DNA from: Psammoneis japonica
Taxonomy: Eukaryota
Reading direction: 5' to 3'
Assembly (NCBI GenBank): GCA_008632985.1
Contig: QPGO01000022.1
Coordinates: 248,001-312,000 of the forward strand
DNA: 64,000 nucleotides
In this document: positions 1 through 37,200 of the stretch, piece by piece
How the letters are laid out: each line of letters starts with the position of its first letter
Numbering within the stretch: the stretch's first letter is position 1
The notes under the pieces: generated by a model
The model's database searches: none
The model's input: the letters and a program-made list of their open reading frames with translations, nothing else
Told to the model about the DNA's origin: nothing
Position numbers and translations under genes: made by a program

Positions 1-229
1 CACAGTGTAGGAGTAGTACTCTCTCATCTCTACTAGAGTCAGTCATACGTACCTACAGTATCGTATGTTTCGCATTCTGGCACATGACCAATGATCGGAA
101 TGTCTTGTGGAGAAGACCAATGCCTTCTTCCTCTCTCCAGATGAATTTGCCAGAGCAGCAAGAGACACTGTCTTTGGATGCACATGCACGTGCTGCATTT
201 TTTCAGCACAAAAGTTACGTAAACCACTT

Positions 230-2340
230 CATCAAAAGCAGCGCGTTGTGGGATTGCCAGAGACTGTTGCAGGATGCACTCACGCAGCATCTCCAGAGCA
301 CAAAACACACAGCACTTGCACGCGACTTCATCAGGGTCATCACCAGTGGCTCGTGGCTCATTTTCTCTCAAGTGTTGCAGCCGAGATCTCCGTGGAACAG
401 GCGCAGTGATGAAGCTTGCGGTCAACAGACTTGCTTGCACCATGTCTTCCACAAGACGACGACCTGGCTGTCCCACCCACCAGGTGAGGCCAACGAAAGA
501 ACAACAACGAGGCAGTTGAGCCTCATTGTTTCGATTGTGACATTGCTGTTGCAGTCGAAACGATTTGTTTTCATGACAAGTGGTCATGTCTCTGCCTGTT
601 GTGGCTGCACCCAACCCCATCAACTGCGAGACCATTTGTGGGTCCATGCCGGACCCATTGGCCGGAGACTGTCAAGCTCATTTAGAGCCTTTCTTGGCTG
701 AGAGCGCCGAGGCCCCAGCTGCCCTGCGTGATGGCATGCTCATGGCTGGCAACAAGGTTCTCAAGGTCTTTGTGCACCTCGTGGGTGAGCCCACACCCAT
801 TGTTCATGTGGTGCACCACACGATGTGCTGCACTCCTGTGCCAGGCCTCGCTGTGCCTTGGGACAACCGCTCTCACACTCTGGCTTCAGACATCAGCCCG
901 AGCAACCAGGAGAGGTTGTGGTCATTGCCTGGACAGTCAACCCATTTGCATGCACACAACTGGTGAGAGTGCCCACCCCAAATGATGTGCAAAATCAGTG
1001 GGCAGCCATGGCTGGAGCAGACTGCCTCGGGCCCTGTGCCGCTGGGGAGCCCCACGTCAAGGAGGTGCGCACACGTTTCTTGGTGCCAACCCCGCCAGCC
1101 TGCTCGTCCCTCACTGCAGCCTGGCAGAACTTCACTCCACAACAGCTCTGGACAGATGTCATCCAACTCATCATTGCTGATGGTTGGGGAGCGGTGTGTG
1201 CCCCTCTGCTCGATTGGGCACACATGCAGCCTGCACTTGTCACACTGGCAATGCTGTGGGTGATCCAGACCAACCACCCACTGCATCACTGGCCATCCCC
1301 ATGGCCCCTGTTGCAGATGCATGTCTCAATCATTGTGTGTCTGGTCATGGCTCACTCAGGACTTGCCTGCTCTTGCCAATCATGCGGGCACCACGAATGC
1401 CATCCTGACCCACAGATGCTTCAGGCCATGCACACAGAGTTTGCCCAGCAGCACACCTGGGCTGCTGCCGCTTGCACCACAGAACATGCCCCAAAGTCAC
1501 CCACCAAAAACTCCCTCAGACAGTTGCTGGCATCCGTTGCATGTGTGAGGTCAATGCCAATGCAGGCTTGCCCGAGATGTGGCACATTCTTGCCGGGGCC
1601 AGCAAAGCGGAAGCTGTTTCCTCCATCCAAGCAATCCTGAATCAATGGGCACAGCAAGTTGGCACCACTTCCAATGCCCCCATCCTTGCACTGGAGCTGT
1701 TCAAGGGCCTGAATGGTTTTCAGCTGGGCAGCGCCGACCCTCAAGACTTCAACAGTGGACTGAGCATCTTTCTGACAATTGCGGGAACGAGCACCCAGTC
1801 CCAGCAAGCACCCACCCGCTCTTTCATCTTCCAGCAGTTGCGTGCCAGTGGAGCCATGCCGGCACTTTTGGACATGGTGCAATTTAACAACTTGGCCCCC
1901 ATCATCTCTGACAGTGCACTGAGTTTCCTGAGAACCTGCTGTGCCTGCGGCATCCTCCTCCTGGAGGTGGTCCCAGGACCAGCTCATCACCTGTTGCAGT
2001 TGTGTCGAGCCAACTTCTTGCATGGTCTAGAATCAATGGTGATCCAACTCAAGGAGTTCCTTTTGCTCTGCATGTTGGACCAGTGCTCTGGTGTCCTTGC
2101 CCGTTGCTGTCATCACACGCAGCTGAATGTGGTGTCGCACCTCAGTGCGGCACCCAGGCTGGGCAACCCCGTGTGCTGCTCCCGAATCTCGAGGAGCCAG
2201 TTGACATCATTTGCATGGAAGGATGTGTGAGTCGTCTCCTGCCTGTCCCCCATGGTCCTGCAACAGGCACCCATGCCAGCTGTGCCGGCCGCTCCAACCC
2301 ATCCGCCGGGTCCAAGTCCACCAATTCCAGGTGGCACTGT
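230..2340 (+). mobile_element. Heavily eroded transposon relic, probably ORF1 (gag-like) of a diatom DIRS/Ngaro-type retroelement
   Basis: Frameshifted ORF pieces 580-966, 825-1640 and 1472-2230 read as one protein once Cys/His is reverted to Tyr (e.g. PNPINCETICGSMPDPLAGDCQAHLEPF becomes ...YETIY...DYQAYLEPF). The block has almost no TpA. The family call rests on recalled similarity, not a search. Confidence 0.5.
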
Positions 2341-3227
2341 CGATCACCTTGGTGGTCTTGGATTCTTTGCTCACTGTCTTCTCTCAGGCTCTACATTTTC
2401 CTCTATCCCATCTCAACCCAAGCCTCCCTGATCCTCTCTTTCTGACCTTCGGCACTCCAATGATTCCTGCTCCACCTTTCTTGCTCTGTGCCTTGTCCTC
2501 TCCGTCTGCTCTTCTCCCATCGGTTGACTTCGCATGGCATTGCCTGTCCTCCGACCGCTTCGGCAGCATTTGTCGCACTGCCTCTCCCTCCCAATTGGCT
2601 TTTCAAGCTCTTAGCTACAACACGTGGTCCTTCACCTCTCCATGCACGCCCTCCGATTTACTTCCTCTCTTCCTGCTCCTTCATCTCCTGTGCCATCAAC
2701 CAAACGTCCTACGTCTAGTGTTTTCACCCTGTTCCACTCTGCCGCCACTACAGCTGCTCCCGTGCCTCCCTCTGCTGTTCCCTTCCATTCTCTGCAGGCT
2801 CTTCATAACTCTATTCTTAAAACGGGCTCCAGACTGACCTACTGGTACATGCCTGGTACTCCCGCCGTTTTCTTTTGGTTCCTCTTGTAAAGCTTCTACT
2901 GTGGCAACAGCCAGGAGCAAGGCTGTTTTGAACAGCCCAGCTTTGGCTGCAACATTTCTGAGCTTTTTCCAGATGAATCAGAGCCATGCAGGGGGGAGAG
3001 GACGGTCGGTCGCTTAAGGAAATGCGGTGATGCTAACAGAAAGCGAAAATAGCTGGGTACCCGATAGAACTAGTCAAAAGGCTGTCGCTTTTGCTAGAGA
3101 GAAGAACTAAGGGGCTCGAATACTTCTAAAAGTACAATCGCTCTACAGCAATTCTAAAAAAAGAAGCTCCTCGAATGTACCGAAACAAGCTCTGAAATGC
3201 ACTACTCTTTTCCCTTTGGTCGGTTCG

Positions 3228-5479
3228 CTAAAGAAGACCTTGACCATTCTTAGACGAAAAAAAGCTGTCAATAGATTTCTGCGTTTTCCCCTTTGACTTA
3301 ATACCATACTGCAAACGAACTTCTTGGGCGATGTGCGGAGGAAGCTCTGCGAGCACATCAACATCAATATCGCTCCATGAGAAAGTTTCTTCTTGTGGCG
3401 GTTTGTGCGAAAAGCTCTTCAAATTCTGGATGCAACGCCGCTCTTCGTTGTTCCTCAGACTGCAAGGATCTTGACCGCTTCGCTTGCTACTTGCAGTTCT
3501 GTCAAAATGAGGTGCTTCGTTCGATGCCGTTGCCTTAGAAGACACAGATTGTAACTGAGAGAAGATGCAGCGCTCGGGGTTTCTCTTAAAAGCGTCATCG
3601 GACTGCACATCAGAAAAATTGGTTGCTGCAATATTCATTCTCGTGACGTTTACGCTATCCCAGTTTGAGAGCAACGAATCCAACAACGGTTTCACCGCAT
3701 TTTCCAGCTGTCTCCGCATTTCAATGTCTGACATCTTCATCAGATATCTTCCATTTATTTCACATTGCTTGCTCTTGGTAACGAAAGGGCGTCGGTTTTG
3801 TATTCTGCTGTCAACCCCTCGCACCGTCACACGGATTGTAGTTGGAAAGGCGCGGTCGGGATTGGTCGAGTCCGACCTTCGCTGATATAGTAAACGAGGA
3901 AGCCTCAAGAGCAAGTCTTCCATGGCATTCCAGACAGCTTTCCATGACAACACTGTGCCTCGTCGAAACGAGTTCTCGACTGAGACAGTTTTTGGGATAC
4001 CGCCGCGGTCATCAGTGATAGACGAAGAATCAACACCTCGACACTTGTCAAAAAGCATGTCACAAATCGGAAAACTGACAACAGAAGAAGCAGTGACAAC
4101 AGGAGTGCGCAATCAAGTGAGCATACGATGCATCGCCAAAATCATCATGCGCTTGAAAATGCGCACTGACCTGTTGGACGAGTTGCAAGATTTCAAATTT
4201 TCAATGCTCGATTGAACTTGGTGACGAGGAACTTGCAGTAAATCGCTTACGAGTTATGACGAAGAAAAAAATAGCGTTACATACAAAAGCCAGTGGTGTC
4301 AGTCGACAGAAACACCTACTCTATCCTTTGCCATCTTACATAAAACGTACCGACATGTCCAAAGTCCGGTTCTGAAGAATGGTATTGCCGCAAGCAAGGC
4401 GTTAATACCGATAGTGTGCGATGCCCGAGCTGCGGGATTTTTCGTAGCGGCATTGGGAGAATAAGTTGTGATGCTTTCCAAGGGTACAGAATATTGAGAG
4501 AATTGGGCTTCTTCCTCGCAGCAGTAGATATGGATGTGAAACAGACAATGCGTCGAGAATGAGGATCACAAAACCAAATCATTGAACAACCAACAACAAC
4601 AACCAGTGACGCGAAACTAACCTTAAGTTCAGATGCCAGTTTTGCTAGCATGGGCGAGACGGACACTCCAACCGTTGTGTTGAATCCTGTTTCTGACTTG
4701 ATAGCGCGTCGTACTTCGTCAGCCATTCCAGCCGCAACTTGCAACCTCTGAGAACACTGTGTCTTTTGCAATTCCGAGAATCCAATGTGACGGCTATACA
4801 GAGGGGACAACTCGTCGCGGAAGGTGCCCGGTCCAACTGTGCATGTCGCGCCACTTTGGTCTTCGGTCAAACAGACGACGTTATGAGACATCTCACCATA
4901 GACGTAAAGGTTCGGCGATGACACGCTTCTGCGAGAGCCTTCTTTGCGAACGGCTAACTTGACAGCAGCAGTAATGTCTGCACACATTTCATCAAAGCCT
5001 CCCTTGCGCGCCGGAATACCCTCTCCTAGTCTTCTGACCGCCTTTCGGAACGTGTTGTATATATTTCGCGAATGCGCTCGATAGCGTTCAAGATCCGAGC
5101 CCTCGATTATAAGCAAGTTTGGACAGATTTGTTTAGCTTCAGAGCGAGATTGGAGCTTTTTCACTCCGACCTCACGTGCGACGTAATTGCTTGTAACAAT
5201 GATGTGCTTTTGACCGATAGCAATTGGACGCTCTTTGTAATCCGGTGGTCCGTCTATTTCCTCACACTGACAATAAAAGCAATCTACATCTAAATGTAAA
5301 ATGCATTTCGACCACAGTATTTCGATGGAATTGTTTTGTTCAATCCCAGCAGATAACGCGGCACCACAGTGGCGATCTGAATCGCTTTGTTCGACGAAAC
5401 TCGTTGCACTTTCGTCGTCTGATGATGATACGCTGAGGCTCTCACCAGGGGAGTGCAATTCAGACAAATCAAAAGGCAT
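3228..5479 (-). CDS. POLI: Y-family DNA polymerase, Pol iota-like (about 4 exons; introns near 4621-4512, 4350-4248, 4168-4076)
   Basis: Motifs ILHLDVDCFYCQ, PIAIGQKHIIVTSNYVAR, GGFDEM, TVGVS...LAKLAS..KKPN, LPMPLRKIPQLG and little-finger PTTIRVTVR. C-terminal ubiquitin-binding motif DIDVDVLAELPPHIAQEV. GT donors are visible (aag|gttag, cg|gtacg, cag|gtcag). Confidence 0.85.
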
Positions 5480-5790
5480 GACTCAACTTTTCACCACAGA
5501 CTTCACGCGAGCTCGAGCTGTTGCCCTATGATGATCATGAAAAAGGTGCATCGGCTTTTCCAATCTCCTTGTCTCCGTCTCACGAAGAGCAGCTTCCTAA
5601 TTGCTCACCACGGAGTTGCTCACCTACTCTACCGTGCCGTGCCACATGCTCACCACGACTTTTTCGCTTGTTCGAACCACACACGTGCAGCATGTCCCCG
5701 CCCCCCTCTTGTCAACTGACGAAGGCCTGACGCGAATGCGCCATAAAATGATGTGCCGGTAAATGTGTGTGATGTCGAGTTGAGAGTGCA

Positions 5791-5916
5791 TCCACACTGT
5801 TGTTTGCATTGTAACGACAAGACGCCGACACACCAAAGAGGCCATGCCATCCTCCACATTGTTGTTTGCATTGCAATGACAAGATGCCGACACACCAAAG
5901 AGGCCACATGCCATCC
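5791..5916. repeat. ~62-bp tandem duplication (2 copies)
   Basis: tccacactgttgtttgcattgtaacgacaagacgccgacacaccaaagaggcca versus tccacattgttgtttgcattgcaatgacaagatgccgacacaccaaagaggcca. Confidence 0.95.
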
Positions 5917-7701
5917 ACACCCAAGAGGCCACGCCATCGATGCTGCCACCCACACCCAAAGCCAAAATGAAGACATGCCAAAATGAAGACATGCAAGTGT
6001 CTGAGTTGTCCCACTGTGTTGTTGCAGCACAGCCCAAAGCAAGAAATGACATTGACATTTCTCCCATGGCTGCTGCATCTGACTGATTGGCTGATTGATG
6101 TGGCTGGGGCAGAAAACGCAGCAGAAGATGAGCTCAAAAGAAGCAAAGCAAGTTTCTGCAATTTGGGGGAAGGTGCTGACTGTGTTGCGTTCATCATGGC
6201 ACCTGTGGGAGGCGCTGGAGCATGCCAAAACAGAGCATGAGACAGCAATCATGCTGTTGACATTTTGGAAACACAGCAGCCATGGAAACATCATCGCCTG
6301 TTGAAACACACAAAGCATGAACAGCGCAAAGTGCGCCGGTTGCCTGAGTGGTGCTGACTGTGATGCACTCATCATGGGCACCTGTGGGAGGTGCCAGAGT
6401 GTGCCAAAACAAAGCACAAAATTGTGCAGTTGCACTTTTGTCATTTTGGGAACATGGCAGATGTGGTGAGCATGTGACGAGCAATGCCACGGTGAGCAAT
6501 TGGCAGCTCTTCTCATGAAACCCTCCTTGTTTGTTTGCTTTGTGATTTGTGCTTTGGGCAAGCAATTGATTTGATTGATTGAGTGCATGATTGCAGTTGA
6601 GCATGCAATCACAGTTAAGTGCACACAATGTGAGGAGGAGGAGCAGAGCCAGAGCGAGCAAGCAGAGTCAGCGAGGTGCTCTCATCTGTCGTGCATCTGT
6701 GAACAAGCGGGCAGGGAGCACTGACCATGCACACCACTGGAGTGAGGTTGTCCTTCATTCCCTGCTGAGCCATGTGTGTGTGTGTGTGCTGCTGCTGCAC
6801 AGTGCATGCATTGCTGTGTGGTGTCTGCTGCCAGGTTGTTCACAGCAGAAAAATTGCTGGCAACGCAATGGTCATCATGCCAGATGGTGCCATGATCGGC
6901 AGCGTGGATTGCCATTGCACAAGATGGCTCATGTCAAGTTTTGGGCTGCATTGCAGATTGTTGTTGGTGGTGACTCATCATTGTGTGAGATGCTTGTCAT
7001 TGGACACACAGACTTGTGGCGCACTTGTTCTTTTGACAACATGTTGTTGCAACATTCCTTCAATTGGGGAGGCAAGGACAGGATTTCAGATTGTCTGCAT
7101 GTCATGACATCATGGCAAGATTCATGCATGGTGCTGCAGCTGTTTTTTGCAGAAATTTGCAGCAACAGCATGCCAGGTTGCTGATCTAGCATCGTTGAAT
7201 TTGTCATGCACCTCATTTTGTGGTTGATGTTGTTGCTTCTCACTCACAGCAAACAGAGGTTTTCTTCTTGTTTTTGCAACCACAATGGCACAACACACAT
7301 GCCAAGTTGCCATTTGATGCAATTTTTCTGCTGCAGCTGTCTCGTGTGCAATTTGCAGTCGAGTGCCTTCATTCAAAACCAGCAAAAATTGAGTGTTTCT
7401 CTTGACACACCACACTGGCAACCCCAATTTCACACAAACTTCAAGCTCTTCTAAAAAACAGCTCCACACACCCACTGCATGGAATTTGTTAATTTTTTGG
7501 AAGTTTCTGTCAACTCCAATGTCCTCAATGACCATTCCTTGAATCTGAGCAATTGATTTGAATCAAACAGACCATGCTGTTCCAAAACACAAGGGGTGCA
7601 CTTTAAAATGCCAACCAGCCAACTGACCAACACAAAAAAGTGTGCAGTCACCAACCACTGAGTGGTCAATGATTCTGTCCATCTGGCAATCTGTCTTGCC
7701 A

Positions 7702-7826
7702 TTTGTCAGAAAGGGCCCCAGCAGGTGTTCTTCTTGACACTCCACCAAGGTCATCACATGACTGTTTGTCAGGAAGGGCCCCAGCAGGTGTTCTTCTTGA
7801 GGCTCCACCAAGGACATCACATGACT
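7702..7826. repeat. 63-bp tandem duplication (2 copies)
   Basis: tttgtcagaaagggccccagcaggtgttcttcttgacactccaccaaggtcatcacatgact repeated with a few substitutions from 7765. Confidence 0.95.
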
Positions 7827-8479
7827 CTTGTTTTGCAATGATGATGCATCAAACCAAGTTGTCATCTCTGGTCACAGACTCCAATCCCAAGTGGGAACAG
7901 TCTGACAACAGCAGAACCTGAGCAGGTTTGGCATGAGAAAATTTTCATTCCTGATGTGGACCTGACAGCACCGCAGTTGATGCCGGGTGGTTTTGGGGAT
8001 TTAAAGACCAAAGCAACCCTTGAGAGCTTGTGACACATGACAAATGATTGTCAAAGCATCATCAACAACATCCAATGTCATTGGAAAACAACTGTTGACT
8101 CATGGTGCACAAAATTGAACTGACCAAGTGTCACACACATGGGAAAAGAATCAACACAGCCATCTTGTCATCCGGCATCTGCCACAATTTGTGTGCCACA
8201 TGCATGAACCACTCTGACTCACAGGGCCAACAAATGATGTGGCCCATCAAAACCAAGTCCTCACAAACTCAGGTTGCAGACTCCAGCCAGCCCCAAGTGC
8301 AAATGTGGTCTGACACAAAAACTGGCCAATTTGGCCTGAGAAATTTTCATTCCCAATGTGAGCAATCACCCATGGACCCAACAGCACCACAGTTGAAACC
8401 ACCATCATCAGGACTCACATCCAAAATTTTGATCTGATTGCTCAACTCCACACAGCTCACAACTCAAGTGAAGAGAGCA

Positions 8480-11400
8480 AACAATGGCAGTTGTGCCACC
8501 ATCAGTTGCAACAAGTGACCTGGGCCATTGTTTCTTGTGCAAGCAGCTTGGAGTGTGCAGTGGTTGTGGGTTCTTGGATCTTCAGGGCCCAAATCTGGAA
8601 TGGCAAGAAATGTTGGTGCTTGATCTTCTGCAATGAAACGTTGACACTGAGTTGTTGAACTTGTTTTTCAGATGCGTTGAAGAAAGGCTTCTGAAGACCA
8701 CCTCTGCCAATCAGCACAACGGAGTGCACAGGAGTGTTTGTGAGGTGTGTTGCCACAAATGGGGCTGGAGTGGGCGTCAATTTTGGATGCTCATGGCCTG
8801 ACTTCTCTTTTCTGATTGCATTTGTAACTGCAGAGTGAATCTTCTTGGTCAGAATGACTGATGAGAGAGAAAGCAAAGTTTTCCCTTGGGGCAGACGGCG
8901 CATGCTGGGGAGTCTGGGTTGGCTCCTGGGTGGGACAGCACACAGCAAACTGCTGCAGACTGGGCACAGACTGGGCAGAGTGGATTGTTCCCAGTTTGGA
9001 ACATCATCCATGCATTGCATTGCTTGACTTGCCATTCTTTTTGCACTCAAAGCTGACAGAGATTGTGTTGGCTGGTGCCAGGTCTTGGTCTTCATGGTCC
9101 AGTTTGGTGCTCTTGTGAGAACAGCAGGGGTTGCTGAGAGCCAACAGCTTGGTTTGTTGCTTGCCTTTGGTTTTGGAGCACTTGCAGGAGTTGCAGCTTT
9201 GCAAAGAACCAAGTGCCAACAATCAGTTGGCTTGTTGTGATGTCTCTTTGCATGTTGCTTGGTTTCAAGACAAAGCACAGAGAAGGGAGGCAGTGATTGC
9301 CTTTTTGTTGTTTCCACTTTCCATCTTGGTTCTCGCAACCTTGGTGTTGGTGGAGAAAAAGGTGTGTGAGGTGCATCTGTCCTTGTCCAAAAAGATGTGT
9401 GAGGTGCATCCGTCCTTGTCCAATCTTGGGTCCTTCATGTCACAAGACCTGAAGGACAATGCCACATTGTCTGCAGTGGCTCTGTGATGGTCCCTGCCAC
9501 CATTGTGCCAAAATCATTTGGCAGAGTGTTGCCCTTTTTGCGTGGCTGTTGCAAAGGCTCCAAGGGTGCAGCGCAATTGGATGACAGCAAGCTCATCCAT
9601 GAATGGGTTGTCTGCAAGTCCAACCTCACCAAAAAAGTGTTCTCAGTGGGTGAGAGCTGCACCTTGCTTTTTGTTGGTGTGTCTTTGGCACTTGCTTCTC
9701 AGTGGGCTCCTTCAGTGTCAAGGAAGTCAACCAAGAGAAACAATTTTGTTGGCAAAAAGGTGAGATGTGAAAAAAGCAAATGAGTGAGTGTGTTGTCAGA
9801 TGAGTTGCCATCATGGGATGGGCAGTCACCAACAGCACTCTTCTTTCCTGGAAAACAATGACTGAAGGATTTGCTTTTGGCACCCAGCATGATTGGTGCA
9901 AATTTGTGGGTGATTTCAATTTGTTCTAGATCAGTCTCTTCATTGCCAAAGTTGGACTTTGCAGCCAGCAGTCAGCCAGAGGTGGTGGTGCTGTTGCCTT
10001 GGGAAGAGCCCGTGAAAAGGGCAGGAGGTTGCCTTTGATCATGTGAGCAATCTGCCCACATGCCGTGAGTTCCTTGGTTTTGAGTGTGAGACCATGTGCC
10101 AGATGATGGAGAATCTCCTGCAACACATCAACCTGTCTGGATGTTGCAGCCACTGACACCACATTCAGATGCAAGTTTGAGAAATCTTCTTGTCCAAAGC
10201 CTTCCATCTTTGATCTCTCAAGAGGTCACATCTTGAGCCACCTTCTGTTTTTGACATGTGGTGTGAGTCAACACAGGTGACTCAGGAAGTGATGTGTGGG
10301 GAATGATGTGTCCAAGGCAGTTGAGGCAACCAACAAGATGTTGTTCAATCTCCTTGTGTGAGTTCCACCTTTCTTGACAAGTTGTTGGAATTGCTTGGGC
10401 CAAGCCACAAATTTGCCTTTTGAAAGTGCCGTGCTCATGTGTCATGTGTCTGGCAGCCAGCCAAGGACTGTCTTGAGTTGTTCAAGTCTCCCTTCAACAA
10501 GGATCTTCTTTGAGCAGGTGAGGTTGTCACAAATGAGATCTTTGTTGGGGTGCACTGGCTGGCAAATGGCAAACCGCATCCATCCCCAGGAGCACTTCTC
10601 TTTGTTTGGCAGCACATGTCAACATCTGGAATGACTGTGACTGTGTCATCTGTGCAGGATGGCATTGGGAGGGATGTCAACCAGGATGTCAAGAGCTGGA
10701 GCAAATGGCACATCAGCGCTCTCACAATGTGGGGGGAGGTGGTCTTTTGTCAGGTTTTGGAGGGTGGTTGGGTCCCAGGACTTGCGCTGCAGGATGTCAT
10801 TGCCCAGATTGCAAATTGATCTGGAGATGTTGCCCCACAGATCTGGTTTGGCTTGCATCCACAGCAGGTGAATCTCAGAGCCAGGGGGGGGGGCAAGAAG
10901 TCATCCATGGTGGCAATGGATTGTGCCACTGTGTTGCTGTTCAAGTGACCTCAGCAGCAGGCCAACTTGCAGTTGGTCTTCTGGATCAGAGCCCAGGTTT
11001 GTGGGTGTTGGAGATGGGCTGATGCAACGTGGTGTGTCAGGCAGTGCAGCACATTTCCATGGTGCGTGCAAGGGGCAAGAAGTTCTTCAGATGTGACTTT
11101 GGGATTCACTGAGGTGCCCAGCCCCAATTTGAAGGATTGTTCATGAGCAACGCACTTGGATGGAACCACCTCACCCCTTTCATTGATTGGGAAGATGATG
11201 GATCTTGTCTTTCAGCAGTCAGGGGCAGTTCCCAGCATTCGTGGACTTCATTGTGAAGTTTTTCTCTCAGGATGGATGCATGTCACTGCTGACTTGTGGT
11301 TTCCTCTCTCAATTGCTTTGCCCAGGTTGTCATGTTGCACACCCTCTTTGACTGGTTCAAGGGAAACTTGGCTGGCTCCATGGGAATTGACTTTCTTCCA

Positions 11401-13330
11401 CAGTGGGTGACAGTGGAGATGCAGTCAAAGTTGATCTGTGTGGATCAAAACTCCAAGCTGTGACCTGAGATGATGTTCTTTGAGGTTGAGGCATTGAGAT
11501 GGAATCATCTGACTTCATTTGGCTGCTTTTTTCTGGCTTCAAAGGAGAATGAGATTGGCTTTGATGGCAGTCATGTGGAGGTTCTGGTGAGGTGAGGTCA
11601 TCTGTCAGCTTGAGCAGTGGAGCATCATTGGATGGGGTCTGAGCAGTCTGGCTGAAGAGACAGAGATGTCAGCAGATCTGCAGAGTTGGCCTCAGGTGGT
11701 GACAGTGCAAAAGGCTCCACTGGGTCAACCTTGGTGTGAGACTTTTGGATTTAGTTGCATGAGAGGCCAGGGCAGGGGTCCACTGGGTCAGCCTGGGGTG
11801 ACAACTTTTGGCAGGTTCCACTGGGCACTTCCAAGGAGAGCACTGTTTGGATTCAAAAACCTTCAGATCTGCTGAGCCAGGAGGCATTTTGATGGGCTCC
11901 ACACTGGGTCATCCTGGGAGGAAGACTTTTTGAATTTGGGTGTCCTGGGATTTGTCTTTTGTGTTGAAAATGGGGAAGCAAGTCCATGGGTCACATGGGC
12001 AATCTTTGGGCAGCAGATTTGGCATCTTGGGGGTTGCCTTGGGGGCTGTCATCATCAGGATTGTTGCTGCTGAGTCTTGAAGGTCATGGCCCTGCAGCTC
12101 AATGGCTCCATGCGGGTGAGTGCACTTGCCAAGCATCTCATGCATCATCTCTCATTGCTTGAACAATTGTTTCTCTGTGCCACCTGGGCTCCTCTCACAT
12201 TGAGGTGTTCCTTGGATTGCATGAGAGATAAGGAGAAGTTGTTGGTTGTGAGGAGGGGGGGGGGAAGTCATGCAGCAAGGAGAAACTTGATCCTCTCATT
12301 GAGTCTTGGGATCTTGAGTTGTCATTGAGACAGTTAGAACTTGATCTGTTTGTCTTGATGAGGCACAATTTGGAGTGGATGGGAGGTTGCAAGGAGGAGC
12401 TTCATCTGCTTGTTTCTTTTGGGTGTGTTTCTTGTTTTCTTGTTTGGCAGGAGAGCTTGCATGTTTGCATCACTTGAAGCTGCCGCCACTGCCAAGAAAC
12501 AACATGCATCCCACTGTCCGGCATTGTCTTTGTCAGATGGGGAGGAGTTGCAACATGAGGAGATCCACCTGGTCACACCCTGCAAAACTTTCCCATGAGA
12601 TTTGGAGCATTTGAACTTGCACAAGGAGGCAATGCAACAGCCCTTTTTGATGTGGAGCTTGCTGGGAGCCAGGTGCCTTCAAATTCAGGCAAGGATTTGA
12701 TGTTTGGGTGGCATGCTTTGCTGCAGTCTTTGTCTTGTTTGAGCTTCCAGGCAGGGGCCATTTCATCATTTCACACCAACTTGCCTTGATTGGTGGCTGA
12801 GTCCTCTCCTTTGTGTTTGGCACCATGCTTGTCATCATTGTTTGGAGGTGGAGGTGGCTGGGAAGGCTGGGGTGATTTGAGCAAAGTGTTCCGAGACTGT
12901 CTTTGCTGGAGGTTGGAGAAGCTGATGAGAAAGTTGTCAACATTGCTGCAGACCTTTGCATTGGTGCATTCTTGTGGTCACAGTTGTGCACATTGATCAA
13001 TGTCTGGGAGGACTTTGGCAAGGAAGGTGGAGTCCTTTGCTTGATGTGAGATGTGGTGCTTCTTGACACGGCAAGCCCAGGAGAGAAGGTTTGGCTCCAC
13101 TGTTCAGTTTTCACCTGCAATGATGGCAAGCAGGCTTGCAAAGTTTTGGATCTGGACAGAGAGAGCATCTGCAGTGGGGGGCTCATGCAGAATCTCTCAC
13201 AACAAGTCCAAAATGCAATCTGCATTGCTGCTCAACAGGCAGTTCACAAAGAAGTTCTTCAAGCTGCTGTTTGCCAGCAACACAGCAAACAAGCTGCCAT
13301 CTTTGTGAGACCAAAACAACTCCTGTTGAG
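8480..13330 (-). mobile_element. Decayed DIRS/Ngaro-like tyrosine-recombinase retrotransposon (ORF1 with C-terminal Zn-knuckle-like region, RT, RNase H, YR)
   Basis: Minus-strand motif remnants lie in the expected order. ORF1 end WKLKQDKDCSK...CKFKCSKSH (~12600-12750). RT ICNLGNDILQRKSWDPTTL...VPFAPALDILVDIP, CTDD (=YIDD, 10645-10656), KILVEGRLEQLKTVLGWLPDT*, LVGCLNCLGHIIP. RNase H QGNSTTTSG*L..KSNF and FPGKKSAVGDCPSHD. YR LIVGTWFFA..SC..SKTKG..TKLL, TISVSFE.KKNG, NPLCPV, PVHSVVLIGR/WSSEAFL..I.KQVQQLS. Confidence 0.85.
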
Positions 13331-13399
13331 ATTTTGATGCACAATGACGATCATCACACAGCATCATCAACAATGTCTGACATTTTTGAGAAATGACTG

Positions 13400-16300
13400 T
13401 TGAATTTGCTGCAAGAAATTGAATTCACAGAATGCCATGTGTGCAGCTGAAAGAATCAGCAGTGCAACCATCTGATTGTCCACCCATGGGTGTCAACCTT
13501 CTTTCCAGAGCAAACTGTGGTGGTGGGGGGGGGGCACTTTGTGCACCCTGCATGTTTTGCTGGTGCAGGAGATGAGTTTAGATTTGACCCACATGGCAAC
13601 ACGCAACAAAATTGTTTTTGCCAAAGTGGGGGGCAGCACCTCTCACAAATCTCCGGAGAACTTGTGCTTGCAACAAATGCCAAGACGCCTTGTTGGGTCC
13701 TCTTTTTTGTTCACTTTTGCACATTCTTTCATTGCCACCAGCTCCAATGATTTTGACATTCTGAGCACTGCCAAGCACAAATTCTGCTTGGTGTGATGCC
13801 ATCAAGAGAGACTCAGATCCCTTCCAAAATCAGAAACTGGCGGGCCAGTCTTGAGGTGCCAAAGTGGACATTTTTGCATTGGCAAGATGGCAGCCAAGGC
13901 CAGGATCCAGCAGGAGGGGTTCTCTGCCAACAGCTTGCTGTCAAAGAAGACAAAATGTGGGCCACACACACTGGAAGTGTGACAACAAAATCTCAGCTGA
14001 GCACCTGGAGAGACTCTGCAACCACAGTCACAGCTTGCAATTGCACACCCAGTTTCTGGGCCAGTTCAAAAGCAGCATTCTCTGAGACAATGGCTCCTGA
14101 TGGACAGGCTGGGGTTGACAACAAACAACATGGCACAGAGGTTGGTGGCTGGCCAAACAAGAAGCTGCAGGCAGGTGTGTTGACACTGGCAGCAGCTGCA
14201 AAGATGGAAGCAACAAGACTGCAGCTGGCTCTCCACCACAATGAAAAGCACAAAGATGTGCAACACTTTCCAAGCTGCCCGGGCACAACAGAAGATGGAA
14301 GAACAAATTCCTGCTGCACAAGTGTGCCAGCTGGGTCAACAAGAAAGACACAGCATCATGATGTGTGGCACATTGCAAGTTTGCAGCCCACATTGGGCTT
14401 GCTCACTGTGTGTCTGGATGTGCTGCTGCAATGTGCCAGTGCCCAACAAGACATTTTCAAGCTCTGTCTGGCTTTCCATGCAATTGGGTCTTAGAGTGCT
14501 TTGCTGGGTGTGAAAAATGTGAAAGAGAAGCAAGCTCTGACTCCCAGCTCAAGATGAAAAAAGCCGCTGCTGAAATGCACAAGCTAGCCAGCAGTGTCGT
14601 GGCCCAGCTTGATTGTGGCTGCTCTCCACCCCAGCTTCAAGGAAGTCATTTGCTGCTTTTTTCATGAATTTGGCTGAACAGCTTGTGATTTGCATGACTT
14701 TTCCCAAATTTCACTGTGCTTCACCATGGTGAAAACATCAAGCCACAAGTCTGCAATGGAGGTGGTCCATGCATCTGCACCAACTCTCATCTTTTTTGTT
14801 TTCATTGTGTGTCAAAGGTTGCACACTTGTGAATGGACCACTTTGCTGTTTTGGAGAAATGTTGAGATTGCTGTCATTGTCATGCATCTGGTGTCATGGT
14901 GCCAGATGTTCTTGTGTTTGTGCATGTCAGGTGTGAACATGGACAATTTTTCCATTCAAAAATGAACACTGCAAACAACCTCATTCAAGTGCCATGGCAC
15001 CAATTCCAGGACAAGAGTGGGGAGATGACCTGCCTTGAATCTGCCAAGAATGCTGCCATCAAGGTTCATGTGCTTTTGGACACATGCCAAGACATGTGAA
15101 AGATCAGAAGCATGCTTGCAGTTCCTTGGAAAATCCCAGCAAAAGCTTTGTGTGCCAAGCCACTGGGGTTATCCAGCAAAGGGTGACTGTTTTCTTCAAG
15201 AGCATTCTGTGCCACTCTCAAAGTTCAGGACATGCAACAAGGGTGTCAACAGCCTGCGCCAAATGCAGCAAAGCTGCAAGAGGATGGGAGGCACCATTGC
15301 CCAAAAATGGACAGCCACACTCATCATTGCCCACATTGTTGTGCACACTTGCTCATGTTTTGGGGAGCAGCTCCTAACTCCATTGAGCAAAAGCACCTCT
15401 GCACCAATTGTGCATGCACCAAATGGCAGCAGCACACTTTTTGGGATGATGTCACACACCTCACAACCCGTGTGCAAATGTGGAGCTTGTGGCAAGCTGA
15501 GCAAGGTCAAGTGCATGCAACATTGACCAGAGTAAGTGAAAACCAACCATCCTGTGTTTGTTGTTGAAAATTGGCCAGCTTTGCAAACAAAACAGCTGAG
15601 TTTTTTGTCTTTGTGCTCAGATGGATCACCCACATCATGGTGCTCTTGTGCTTGAGCCAGAGCTCTTGCACATTGTGCAGATTTTGTGTGCTGCTGCACA
15701 AGTTGCTTGGGGAACCTGCAACATTTCAGGAACTCTGGCTCTGCAGCTTCCAACCAATGGTGCAAAAAATCCTTGCAACTGGGCATCATTTGGTGACTGA
15801 TGAAAGCCAATGTTTGAAAACAAGTCTCTCCAGTGCTTTTTGCAGAAGAAAAAAATCTGGCACCATTTGTGCACCACTGGCAGTTCTGCAAGTGGAAGCA
15901 AAGCTGCATGCAATCAATGCTGCAAATGCACCTGGAGGCTGCACATGACATCTGCTTGAAGAGGCTCCAGCAGAGAGATTTGATTCTCAAGTGCACAGAA
16001 GCACAGCCCACAGCACAGATGTGTGCTGCATTTTAGCTGACCAAAAGCCCCAAAGAGTGCCAACACCAACCAGCAACCATTGGGCATTGATCAGTTGGAT
16101 GCTGCTGCAGCCTCAGTTGCAACTCAGAATTTGACCAAAGTTGGGCATTGTGGCAACAATGAACATGGCACCCACACCAGCATGTCTGCCTGGTCTGAGT
16201 CACATCACACTGATGTCTGGATTTCCCCAAGACTCATGCAGCACTGTGATGAAAGCACTGCAAGATGTTCTTGGTCTGCACCTCTGTCACTCTGAGACTG

Positions 16301-17340
16301 TGCTGTGCCTGGCAGCAAAGGTGAGGAGCAGAAAGAATGGTGCTTGGGAGCCAGCATCACAAAGATGGCACTTAAGAGGAACTGACATCAAAAAGATTAA
16401 GACAAGCACAAAGAGCTGTTGCATCATTTGGGAGAGTCAAGGGAGCACAAAGCAGTCAAAGAATTGCTGTTGGAGGATGGAAAGGACAAAACACTCTTGC
16501 AACAAACTGGAAGTGAACGTCTCACAGATGAGTTTTTTGCCAAGTTTTTCTGAGCACATCATGGAAGTCCAAGAGAAGATCTTTTGGAAGCACTGCACCA
16601 TGTTGTCACATCTTTGAAAAAGCTCCGTGCATGACCCACGGGAAAGATTGCAGGATTGTTGATCCCATGACTCTCAGAAGGTGAGTGAGTTGGTCTTCAG
16701 CAATGGCACAGCTTGGGCTGAGTCCCACAGTGAATGGAAAAGTTGTTGCCACTAAAGCTGCTAAAAGCACTGGGGAATTGGGTCAGCAAACTTTGTTTTG
16801 TTGACACAGATTGTGCTGGAAATCTGTTGACTCAAAGGCTGCACAGCCAACATTGATTTTTGTGCAAACAGCTCCACCTGTCATTTGGCTCAACAGGAGA
16901 CAAAACCAAATGGAGTCATCTTCTGCTTTTGGAGGTAACACCTGCTTTTCACATTCCAAAGAAACTGGTTGTTGCACTCCAGTGCAGCTTGTGAGTGTTT
17001 TTTGTGGTGCTCCAGTTGAGGGTCCGTCAAAAGTGCTTTTTGTGTGAAAAAATGGAGTGGAGGAGTTGTGAAAAATGTTGGCACTCCAGGGTCTGAAACA
17101 CAACACAACTGTCTGCCATGTTGCACACAAAGCTGTTGCTCTGGGTGCTGTGAGGGTTGGAAAAGAGGATGGAGAAACAAATTTGGCAGACATGTTTTGA
17201 CCAGGTTTGTGATGCAGAACACTGGCTTTGATTTGTTGTGGTCAGGCCCTGGCACCCTTCTTGTGCCACCCACACAGTTTCACCTCCCAGGCCAATTGTG
17301 ATTGGTGGTTCATGTCTCTGGGCTCTTTGTGTTTTACTTC
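13400..17340 (+). mobile_element. Eroded TE-like coding relic of uncertain family (Crypton-like tyrosine recombinase is possible)
   Basis: Same TpA/CpG erosion and frameshifted protein-like fragments (e.g. TNQQPLGIDQLDAAAASVATQNLTKVGH...LMSGFP near 16065-16230) loosely resembling the Crypton YR C-terminus. Weak. Confidence 0.3.
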
Positions 17341-34999: not shown

Positions 35000-35208
35000 A
35001 AAGCAGTTGAATGTTCATTGTTTTCGATTGGCGGCACCGCTGCCATGGTCGAAGATGACTTGTTTTTGCAACCCACCCTCTGCCGGTGTGTGCCACACAG
35101 AGTGAAAGATGAGATGGAAGAACACAAGACATTGTGGCAAGCAAACCCAGCCCCAACAGTTGCGCGAAATCATTTGGAGTGCTTGAAGAATGCACCCTTT
35201 GTGTGTGC

Positions 35209-35242
<34 letters not shown>

Positions 35243-37200
35243 ATGGAGATCATTTGTGCAATCGACCAACTCAAGCAAGCAATGACACCCCCCCCCGATC
35301 GTTTTGACACAACAGCTCACCACACGTCAACAACAGCAGCCGGCCGCTGATGAGGCCACCATGAAAGTCTTGCTCCTGACTTCGACCAACGCCATTGTGC
35401 CTGCTGCTTGTCTGAACAGTTGGACAACCACCCAAATGGCAGCTCTGCCTCAGCTGCCACATCTTGTTGGTCACATTTGACAGAGAATCTGCTGCGCCGA
35501 TTCTGTTCGTTCGTTCAAGAGAGAGAGAGAACGGAGATCATTCGTGCAATTGACCAACTTAAAGCAAGCAATGACACACACATGATGATCATCAGTGCAA
35601 AGAATGATAAAATCTTTGGTGCGCGCAGACACAAGACCAAGTTTTGCAGGTTTCTTGAAGAGTTGTCTGTCAATGTGAAAAGCACCCGATGAGCTGATGA
35701 GAGCAGCATGCCTGAAAGAGGTTGCAATGGTGGAGTCAGATCAGAGCCCTTTGGACAGACTGCCTTTCACTTGTGAGAGATCACCTCACCTCCAGGCAAT
35801 CAGAGCATCTGCCAGACAACCGCCACTGGCACAGCCACAGTTTAGAACATCAGAGGGTGAGCTGCTGGGCTCTCACCAAGAACCACTGAACATCACTTGC
35901 ACTTGGACCTCTGTGATGTTTTGATGTCATGACAATTGTTGAAAAGTTTTGCTCAAATCTTTGCATGGCAAATTTGCACATGTCAGAGTTGAGCCACTTG
36001 CAAACAGCGAAGTTGGCACATGCAGGTGCATCGGTGCTTTGGACAGATGGACAAAGAGTGATGAATCTGTCTGACTCTGGCTGCAGGGCATGCACTCCGA
36101 CACCTGTGTGCACTCTGACTCAACCCATCTCCTGCCTTGCTGCACTGGCCCTGGCAGCTGGCTGCAGTGCAGCAGCCTGCTCTCTCTGGCCACTGGCAGA
36201 GGCCTCCATGTGCTGGCTTCTTTTGCACTCATTGCGCCTTTCACAATTTTGCTCTTGCCACTTGTTCCCCTTTGGATGCTTTCTTGATTGCTCTGATTGC
36301 TGCAAAAGAGCAAGTGTGAGAGGTTTGGAACAAGATTCACAGTGTTGCTTTTGAGAAATTCTTCTTGGTCAAGGTGCAAGGAAACAAGCGGATGTCAGCT
36401 GCACACAAGTGTGCCAAATTTGTGACAAAAGCACGCCATTTGTTCAACGAATCTTGTTTTGTGCATTGCTTGGAACCTGTGTCGCTGGCGCACATGCCCA
36501 CAGCAGCATGAAAAGTTTGGTGCACTTGATGCTCTGTCCATGGCTCTTGCACATTTGCTCATCTTCCCTCATCTCCCACCAAATCAATTTGCTTGTTCCC
36601 CATTTGTTTTGCAGTGCACACACACTTCTTGATGTGCATCTTAAGCCCTTCATGCAGACCCAAATGTGGAGCACAATCTTTTGCCCGAGGGATGAGCAGA
36701 ATGGCTGGTGTGGTTGTCTGAGCCTTTTGGTTGGTGCCAAGTGCGCAGGTGTGAACCCTCACTTTCTGCCCTGTGCTGTGTCACTGGCCAGCATTCGCAC
36801 TCAATCTTCTCTCACCTCCTTGTCACAGGTCTGATCATCCTCCACCAGACAGACTCGAGACTGAGTGAAACCTCAACGCAACAAACACACAGCCTGTTTC
36901 GTGACTCTGTGTTTTGAAATTTTGCATCGGCGGACAATTTGCAATGGTCTGACATGGGAACAAGTGAGTGGCTGTTCCAGCACTTACAATGTCACTTTCA
37001 TGTCTGACACATTTGTGAGCGTGAGCACTGCAGTCAGAATTCTCACTTGTGCGGCGTCCTTCATCTTTGCTCTGTGTCCAAAACTGTTTGAACAATGCCT
37101 CTGCTGCCTGCCAGTCATTGTGTATGCCTTTTCCATCTTTTATGGTGGCCAATGCTTAGGACGACTTAGCCTTGTGGGTCAAGCCAAAAAGAAATCTGCT
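35000..37200. mobile_element. Third TpA/CpG-eroded block, unidentified TE-like relic
   Basis: TpA nearly absent, Cys/His-rich junk ORFs, and a duplicated ~55-bp segment (35233-35288 / 35521-35578). Confidence 0.55.
35200..35242. repeat. Compound (GT)n(GA)n microsatellite
   Basis: gtgtgtgcgtgtgtgtgtgtgtgagagagagagagagagaga. Confidence 0.9.

What the first reader, a model, noticed from the sequence alone, without database searches (positions are those of the whole stretch)
6600..17000. Surviving TAs are mostly YTAR, pointing to a TAY target preference
The roughly two dozen TAs I found in the block interior are mainly TTAA, TTAG, CTAA or CTAG (e.g. ~6615, 7186, 7451, 7489, 7603, 8001, 9926, 11751, 12334, 13578, 14491, 14585, 16033, 16372, 16752). 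A few are RTAA or TTAT, and I saw no RTAY (GTAC, ATAT, GTAT, ATAC). YTAR is the one class with no 5'-TAY on either strand, suggesting an enzyme that prefers TAC/TAT. Established parallels: TadA acts on UACG and TadA-derived editors favour TA, and Pol eta gives A>G at WA/TA in somatic hypermutation. Which, if either, applies is unknown.
Basis: partly seen in the sequence, partly recalled or inferred. Interest (0 to 1): 0.7.

Follow-up and report, generated by a model that had tools for sequence, protein, structure and literature searches.

The report
Flank rule of diatom TA mutator
In this diatom, jumping-gene DNA has had almost every TA step rewritten to TG or CA after insertion, and the few TAs left show that the unknown mutator works about three times faster on an A followed by C or T, a fingerprint that can be used to find the enzyme.

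Summary
Confirmed. 6600-17000 holds 23 TA: 18 YTAR, 4 RTAA, 1 TTAT, 0 RTAY, against 16-20% YTAR in genes or intact relatives (P about 1e-9). The block is decayed mobile DNA (a DIRS-type element plus short repeats) in a diatom, stripped of TA and CG. Survivors alone cannot say which base pair changes; aligned Copia copies can: it is the A of TAY (342 versus 93 sites, five families). Rates: +1 C or T about 3x, -2 A and -3 A about 2x, no strand bias. YTAR is slower, not immune, and these rates predict the window's survivors (15-19 YTAR of 23). It acts after insertion (LTR pairs), in domains. Pol eta does not fit (AA barely hit, 1% transversions); TadA fits only loosely (no TACG or YTAC preference). 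Best guess: adenine deamination of silenced DNA (0.5); no enzyme identified or expanded. TpA hypermutation is known from one preprint on Bigelowiella; I found no diatom case or flank rule in print. This scan noted the same pattern many times in this genome.

The parts
5830..17330 (.). TA- and CG-eroded block (patchwork of decayed mobile DNA)
   Evidence: 23 TA and 65 CG in 11.5 kb; rho TA 0.03, CG 0.10, CA 2.0, TG 1.75; sharp edges in 200-base profile; covered by contigs of DNA run X1
6615..16938 (.). The 23 surviving TA steps: 18 YTAR, 4 RTAA, 1 TTAT, 0 RTAY
9350..11400 (-). Decayed RT/RNase H gene of a tyrosine-recombinase (DIRS-type) retroelement; stops and frameshifts; the YIDD-type motif reads CTDD at 10645-10656
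   Evidence: 168 relatives at E<=0.001, YIDD the commonest such motif in the 150 listed (49); tblastn extent; no Pfam match itself. The DIRS label of the RNase H motifs is recalled
8467..9400 (-). Decayed downstream ORF matching the tyrosine-recombinase ORF of intact relatives (inner end approximate)
   Evidence: tblastn of relatives' 433-450 aa ORFs; 3 of 4 such ORFs match PF00589, 1 over the cut-off
12672..13151 (-). Match to the upstream ORF of one intact relative (probably the first ORF of the same element)
   Evidence: one tblastn hit, E 2e-7
14630..15040 (.). High-copy short repeat, eroded
   Evidence: 46 matches at 70-79% elsewhere in G000, lower bound
7400..7670 (.). High-copy short repeat, eroded
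   Evidence: many matches at 70-80%
6170..6460 (.). Short repeat found in tandem elsewhere, eroded
230..2380 (.). Second eroded block: TA gone (3), CG partly kept (rho 0.39)
35000..36980 (.). Third eroded block: 4 TA (3 YTAR, 1 ATAA), CG rho 0.35
3234..5594 (-). Neighbouring host gene, DNA polymerase iota-like (Y family), spliced; not eroded; probably a chance neighbour
   Evidence: PF00817; best solved match Pol iota E 2e-26 versus eta 1e-12; named relatives are diatom proteins; one contig of run X2 skips three introns

Best explanation
A host mutator acts on inserted mobile DNA in the chromosome and turns the A:T pair whose A follows a T into G:C, on either strand, so TA becomes TG or CA. 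Each TA has two half-sites; a half-site is hit about 3 times faster when the A is followed by C or T and about 2 times faster for each A at -2 and -3 (best site AAT-A-Y). YTAR has two slow half-sites, RTAY two fast ones, so at near-saturation almost only YTAR is left. This much is shown (confidence about 0.9). Inferred: the chemistry is deamination of adenine to hypoxanthine (read as G) by a zinc deaminase of the ADAT2/3 or ADAT1/ADAR fold, recruited to silenced transposon chromatin in kilobase domains over many cell generations; CG loss is ordinary methyl-C decay in the same domains, much slower. The enzyme is not identified; the confidence figure is for the deamination step.
For: Direction and side: in 14 copies of one young Copia family (279 TA sites) YTAY goes to TG 294: CA 114, RTAR to CA 56: TG 19, RTAY 182:187, YTAR 53:47; by site, 342 versus 93 in five families. 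Joint fit with site bootstrap: +1C 2.8 [2.1-4.0], +1T 3.0 [2.1-4.3], +1G 0.9, -2A 2.0, -2Y 1.0, -3A 2.0, +2G 0.8, +2A 0.6; strand term 1.00 [0.89-1.13]. Survival in heavily hit bins: RTAY 9 of 219, mixed 33 of 356, YTAR 34 of 105. These rates predict 15-19 YTAR, 4-7 mixed, under 1 RTAY among 23 survivors (12-20 YTAR over other starting mixes); no-context models predict 4-6. After insertion: in 53 LTR pairs from 60 loci, 348 of 601 differences are TA versus TG/CA, A-of-TAY 147 versus 72; product choice in most copy pairs is near the level for independent events. Clean chemistry: 952 TG/CA, 4 CG, 12 transversions. Rare non-TA A>G in hot bins favours +1 C (28 of 1352 versus 11 of 4107). CG>TG/CA is 5x higher in hot than cold bins but only 0.029 per site. 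In the window 0 of 15 conserved Tyr columns keep Tyr; 7 read Cys, His or Arg. Same class of change seen directly in B. natans (10.64898/2026.01.13.699255).
Against: No enzyme found: one ADAT2, one TadA-like gene with an N-terminal leader, two ADAT1/ADAR-fold genes of which the second is a conserved diatom family; no expansion. No same-strand runs (289 of 543 adjacent pairs, expected 283), so no sign of a processive single-strand deaminase. The motif differs from TadA's YTACGAA (PMC12255301) and from ABE's mild TA>CA>AA>GA order (PMC8065034). Sequence cannot tell an A lesion from a T lesion in 5'-RTA on the other strand. The +1 bias of non-TA A>G is seen in three families but not in a fourth (F3, P=1). 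Copies share ancestry, so events are not fully independent; some copy pairs agree more than expected (87 of 113 versus 66). Direct polarisation inside the window block failed (3 versus 4 sites): the rates come from Copia copies elsewhere in the genome.
Confidence: 0.5

Rival explanations
1. Polymerase iota-type misinsertion: a short repair patch puts G opposite template T in 5'-R-T-A-3', fixing T>C (the same pair change). The purine that follows on the template would help extend the mispair.
For: Human Pol iota inserts G opposite T 3-10 times better than A and is most efficient opposite template A (PMC3979402, passages); the genome has a spliced Pol iota-like gene, next to this block; no strand bias needed.
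Against: The gene has 37-54% identical relatives across diatoms and is not expanded. Other T sites are hit 45-200 times less, so a separate TA-specific nicking or excision step would still be needed. Adjacency is one observation.
Confidence: 0.15
2. Two-step adenine route: TA is first marked or excised (N6-methylation then deamination, or an adenine glycosylase followed by Rev1 inserting C opposite the gap).
For: A palindromic dinucleotide target on both strands parallels CG methylation, and CG decay rises in the same bins; a Rev1-like gene is present (label from its motifs, recalled).
Against: Only 9 A>T among 968 changes, whereas abasic sites usually give many (recalled). The MT-A70 search found nothing, but its control did not ring, so it is uninformative.
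Confidence: 0.17
3. Thymine-side modification (5hmU or 5-formyl-U at TA in transposons) that mispairs with G.
For: 5hmU marks repeats in dinoflagellates, with an old report of TA/TC preference (PMC11071213, passages).
Against: No Tet/JBP match in the genome (weak, first look found no candidate); the same paper found no sequence preference itself.
Confidence: 0.07
4. Polymerase eta errors at WA as in somatic hypermutation.
For: Two eta-like genes; AA A>G is 4x higher in hot than cold bins.
Against: WA includes AA (PMC7884765, passages), yet AA 15 of 1679 equals CA 21 of 2164 and is 50x below TA; 1% transversions.
Confidence: 0.03
5. Editing of element RNA or errors in reverse transcription, or mosaic copies inherited from one eroded ancestor.
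For: Erosion is polar in family F1, as template switching could give.
Against: Both strands equally hit; the two LTRs of one insertion differ at TA; copies choose TG or CA nearly independently; TA is also low in upstream flanks of eroded copies (rho -0.57, P=0.03, n=14).
Confidence: 0.03
6. No context rule: YTAR excess is starting composition, selection or assembly error.
For: The window differs from run X1 contigs by small indels in the block; only 40 of about 140 substitutions were shown, so not every survivor was checked.
Against: Three baselines give 16-32% YTAR; the rule is measured directly in aligned copies and LTR pairs.
Confidence: 0.02

Closest known systems
TpA hypermutation of integrated viral DNA in Bigelowiella natans (Mettrop et al., bioRxiv 10.64898/2026.01.13.699255; parts 1-4 of 5 read, supplements closed)
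   Same: A>G / T>C confined to TpA, both strands, local domains of foreign DNA, long-term TpA loss with CpA+TpG gain, transposon domains among depleted sequences, ADAT2 proposed.
   Different: Chlorarachniophyte, not diatom; viral inserts mainly and far from saturated (rho TpA 0.45 versus 0.03 here); main text has no 'diatom', 'context', 'trinucleotide' or 'CpG', so no flank rule and no coupled CG loss are reported.
Bacterial TadA and TadA-derived adenine base editors
   Same: A read as G, T before the A, TAC a good site (PMC12255301, PMC8065034; passages).
   Different: TadA needs YTACGAA in an RNA loop and loses activity with +1 T; here TAT equals TAC, +2 G and -2 Y do not help, -2 A does. 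ABEs prefer YA with about 3-4x between TA and GA; here TA exceeds CA, AA, GA by 45-200x.
Polymerase eta WA mutagenesis in somatic hypermutation
   Same: A>G at TA in regional domains.
   Different: AA is not a hotspot here and transversions are about 1%.
Repeat-induced point mutation of fungi (recalled; mentioned in the preprint)
   Same: Repeat-directed, dinucleotide-specific transition mutagenesis that kills transposons.
   Different: Opposite chemistry (RIP makes TA from CA; here CA>TA is 3 of 2200 in hot bins); near-identical young copies can be untouched or hit over half their length.

Membership tests
B. natans-type TpA hypermutation | Changes almost only A>G/T>C at TpA | tested here: met
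   956 of 968 changed TA sites are transitions; other A sites 45-200x lower
B. natans-type TpA hypermutation | Confined to domains of foreign or mobile DNA | tested here: met
   rho TA 0.03 in blocks versus 0.57-0.62 in genic DNA; blocks are repeats
B. natans-type TpA hypermutation | Acts on chromosomal DNA after integration, both strands | tested here: met
   LTR pairs; strand term 1.00
B. natans-type TpA hypermutation | About 1000-fold raised rate per generation, active in some lines only | not testable with these tools
   needs a mutation-accumulation experiment; copy-to-copy variation is only suggestive
B. natans-type TpA hypermutation | Same enzyme or same flank rule | not testable with these tools
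   preprint's mutation table is in closed supplements
TadA-type editing | T before the edited A | tested here: met
TadA-type editing | +1 C required, +2 G and -2 Y preferred (YTACGAA) | tested here: not met
   +1T 3.0 equals +1C 2.8; +2G 0.8; -2Y 1.0
TadA-derived ABEs | YA preference with CA a good site | tested here: not met
   CA 21 of 2164 versus TA 494 of 1124
Pol eta WA mutagenesis | AA as well as TA is a hotspot | tested here: not met
   AA 15 of 1679
Pol eta WA mutagenesis | Substantial A>T and A>C (recalled) | tested here: not met
   12 of 968
Processive single-strand deaminase (APOBEC-like clusters, recalled) | Same-strand runs of mutations | tested here: not met
   289 of 543 and 90 of 183 adjacent pairs, as simulated
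RIP | C>T at CpA | tested here: not met
   3 of 2200 hot versus 9 of 4374 cold
DIRS-type retroelement (the substrate) | RT with Y.DD motif and RNase H followed by tyrosine recombinase | tested here: met
   through relatives only:
DIRS-type retroelement (the substrate) | Inverted or split terminal repeats | not tested
   element ends not mapped

The most novel reading that the evidence does not exclude
Diatoms have an adenine-based counterpart of RIP: a dedicated nuclear enzyme that reads AAT-A-Y in double-stranded or locally opened DNA, is loaded at one end of a newly silenced transposon and spreads along it as a front, erasing every TA. It would be a natural, chromatin-guided DNA adenine editor, shared with or convergent on the chlorarachniophyte system, and still at work on a young Copia family in this genome.
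Probability: 0.35. Interest if true: 0.9.

Novelty: new variant of a known kind. Interest (0 to 1): 0.68.

Why it matters
Natural A-to-G editing of genomic DNA as a defence has one preprint behind it and no enzyme. A saturated case on transposons in a second, distant lineage, with a measured flank rule (near-absolute T at -1, about 3x for +1 pyrimidine, about 2x for A at -2 and -3, no strand bias), gives a fingerprint against which candidate enzymes and the B. natans mutation list can be tested. It already removes Pol eta and plain TadA specificity. It also means that such repeats escape homology annotation (no Pfam match in 11.5 kb) and that LTR divergence overstates insertion age in this genome.

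Tried and rejected
Pfam on six frames of the block: no real match. All in-genome relatives of the block that I fetched are eroded and 64-80% alike, so polarising TA fates inside the block gave 29 sites and no signal (3 versus 4). Composition-only asymmetry (YTGY+RCAR over YCAY+RTGR) is 1.47 in the block but already 1.30 in genes: weak. In the product-only fit several terms are collinear (+1Y with -2R, +2A with -3T), so single values come from the joint fit. CpG density did not explain the position of erosion in family F1 (rho 0.35, P=0.21; position rho -0.92; 14 bins). 0 of 80 metagenome relatives of the element are eroded (rho TA 0.43-0.89), but the search favours intact copies, so this says little on distribution. 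Enzyme searches: PF00383 10 matches, PF14437 6, PF02137 4 (two genes), PF00817 6 (five genes), PF12851 0, PF05063 0 with silent control; ADAT3, APOBEC-like and cytosine-methylase families were not searched separately. The Asn that the preprint stresses in ADAT2 appears to be the one in the C.N.RFGG motif, present here but also in all four ADAT2 alignments shown, so it does not discriminate. Atlas look-up of the second ADAR-fold gene gave only PF02137 clusters. No RNA holder listed for the block; run X2 has next to no cover there: no evidence either way. The one search count of TA-type LTR differences (472 of 601) was lenient; the strict count is 348. Genes around the deaminase loci were not read beyond the fetched loci.
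Full report
Observation. The window is eukaryotic; the gene next to the block has its named relatives in diatoms. Between about 5830 and 17330 TA is at 0.03 and CG at 0.10 of expectation while CA and TG are at 2.0 and 1.75; genic DNA has TA 0.57-0.62 and CG 1.04. In 6600-17000 there are 23 TA: 18 YTAR, 4 RTAA, 1 TTAT, no RTAY. YTAR is 16% of genic TA (P=9.5e-11), 32% from the block's own flank composition (P=8e-6) and 20% in 80 intact relatives of the element (P=3.5e-9). Other eroded tiles of the genome give 56 YTAR, 33 mixed, 1 RTAY of 90. Contigs of DNA run X1 cover the block; X1 may be the source sample, so this is not independent support.

What the block is. It has no Pfam match. A profile search found 168 relatives of the segment at 10034-10810; they carry a YIDD-type RT and an RNase H region, and the ORF that follows in metagenome relatives matches the tyrosine-recombinase family in 3 of 4 tested and maps to about 8470-9400. 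So the centre is a decayed DIRS-type element on the minus strand, among short high-copy repeats. Of 15 columns where relatives mostly have Tyr, the window keeps none; 3 read Cys, 3 His, 1 Arg, 8 other. All in-genome relatives fetched are eroded as well, so the context rule could not be measured inside the block.

Measuring the rule. A PF07727 search gave 150 Copia RT matches; I fetched 60 of these loci at 8-10 kb, chosen to fill apparent families, and used 58 that fell into six groups. Family F1 (14 copies, 95-99% alike) spans untouched to nearly saturated copies. At 279 TA sites the states are TA 2925, TG 548, CA 404, CG 4, and 12 transversions. The product depends on flanks: YTAY gives TG 294: CA 114, RTAR gives CA 56: TG 19, the symmetric classes are even. 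Counting each site once, the changed pair is the A of TAY in 342 and the A of TAR in 93 sites over five families (76:16, 94:32, 38:11, 83:20, 51:14; group F2a was not in this test). This matters because survivors cannot separate 'A of TAY' from 'A of RTA': a survival-only fit puts the effect at -2. The joint fit gives +1C 2.8, +1T 3.0, +1G 0.9, -2A 2.0, -2Y 1.0, -3A 2.0, +2G 0.8, +2A 0.6, with site-bootstrap intervals excluding 1 for +1C, +1T, -2A, -3A and +2A. There is no bias to the element's sense strand (1.00, 0.89-1.13). Survival in bins with at least 70% loss is 9 of 219 RTAY, 33 of 356 mixed, 34 of 105 YTAR; in partly hit bins 0.46, 0.66, 0.79. Run to 23 survivors from 390-470 starting TA, these rates predict 15-19 YTAR, 4-7 mixed and under 1 RTAY, with about 80% of YTAR lost too; other starting mixes give 12-20, the lowest fitting poorly (P=0.013). 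The window's pattern is therefore what a modest preference gives at saturation. Caveat: copies share ancestry and sites recur, so intervals are approximate.

Where and when it acts. In 53 LTR pairs, 348 of 601 differences are TA against TG/CA; TA is one-sided in 41 YTAR cases against 148 kept in both, and in 84 RTAY cases against 41. LTRs are identical at insertion (established), so the changes are made in the chromosome. Copies mostly choose TG or CA as if independently, with a few pairs in excess. In F1 loss starts in the 5' part and ends at a front that differs by copy, and upstream flanks of eroded copies tend to be TA-poor; in two other families the 5' LTR is more often the spared one. 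Several families have lost most TA but kept CG; CG decay is 5x raised in hot bins but reaches only 0.029. So TA loss is a separate, much faster process in the same domains. Among 40 shown differences between the window and X1, 19 are CG versus TG/CA in both directions and 4 are TA versus TG/CA.

Mechanism. In hot bins A>G is 494 of 1124 at TA (saturated), 15 of 1679 at AA, 21 of 2164 at CA, 5 of 2229 at GA. That excludes a WA rule (PMC7884765, passages). Bacterial TadA needs YTACGAA and loses activity with +1 T (PMC12255301, passages); ABEs prefer YA with a few-fold range (PMC8065034 and 10.1101/2024.11.19.623682, passages); neither matches beyond 'TAC is good'. The purity of the transition and the +1 C bias of rare non-TA events (three of four families) fit a miscoding adenine lesion best, so I put deamination at 0.5. 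Same-strand runs are absent, which points to many separate hits. A T-side reading (5'-RTATT) cannot be excluded by sequence: Pol iota puts G opposite T (PMC3979402, passages), and a spliced Pol iota-like gene lies beside the block, but it is an ordinary diatom gene. Searches found one ADAT2, one TadA-like, two ADAT1/ADAR-fold genes and five Y-family genes, none expanded; the second ADAR-fold gene is widespread in diatoms.

Comparison and novelty. Mettrop et al. (10.64898/2026.01.13.699255; parts 1-4 of 5 read) measured TpA-only A>G hypermutation of viral inserts in Bigelowiella natans and inferred it for transposons; the main text gives no flank rule and does not mention diatoms. Searches for a diatom case or a flank rule found none; two diatom repeat papers have none of the terms (PMC12718438, 10.1101/2025.10.24.684338; term counts only). 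PMC11071213 was seen as passages. The library lacks most subscription journals. Earlier notes of this scan report the same pattern, a threefold TAY preference and the lack of strand runs on other pieces of this genome; they led me to the preprint and are not support. It works like the B. natans system; shared identity is untested. Verdict: real, a new variant of a recently described kind; interest 0.68.

Noticed in passing
L088-L101 (Copia family F1 in G000): Erosion starts in the 5' part of the element and stops at a copy-specific front (2 to 5.5 kb in); some copies with identical LTRs are untouched; one copy spares the 5' LTR. In two other families the 5' LTR is more often spared than the 3' LTR.
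   Followed up: partly
window 3234-5594 (-): Pol iota-like gene with three introns shown by a contig of run X2, directly beside the eroded block; X1 has one extra base at 4361, perhaps an assembly error in the window.
   Followed up: partly
window 200-2650 and 5600-9010 versus run X1: X1 contigs differ from the window at about 0.5-1% in eroded blocks but hardly at all in the gene between (0 in 1.8 kb, 1 in 1.0 kb); most classifiable differences are CG versus TG/CA in both directions.
   Followed up: partly
L157:1315-1773 (-), G000:C151: A deaminase-like gene fragment that is itself TA-eroded, so host-type genes can be hit.
   Followed up: no
L165 (G000:C79) and L164 (G000:C40): Two ADAT1/ADAR-fold genes; the C79 one belongs to a conserved diatom family with the deaminase domain alone. 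Untested candidate.
   Followed up: partly
L160 and L162: Two eta-like Y-family polymerases besides Rev1-, kappa- and iota-like genes (labels partly from recalled motifs).
   Followed up: no
L152:313-1785 (-): Zinc deaminase domain fused to a 2OG-Fe(II) dioxygenase.
   Followed up: no
L013 and L018 (G000:C94, C117); L148 and L149 (C41, C317): Near-identical stretches on two contigs (99% over 2.6 kb; identical dCMP deaminase-like ORF), probably allelic contigs.
   Followed up: partly
window 230-2380 and 35000-36980: Two more blocks with TA gone but about 35-39% of expected CG left, earlier stages of the same decay.
   Followed up: partly
L108-L147: Copia families with long open frames (up to about 2200 codons) although most TA is gone; TA loss removes TAA/TAG stops and makes few new ones, so ORF length overstates intactness.
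   Followed up: no
L245, L270 (metagenome contigs): Relatives of the element with strong CG loss (rho 0.18, 0.31) but normal TA: CG decay without the TA mutator in other organisms.
   Followed up: no
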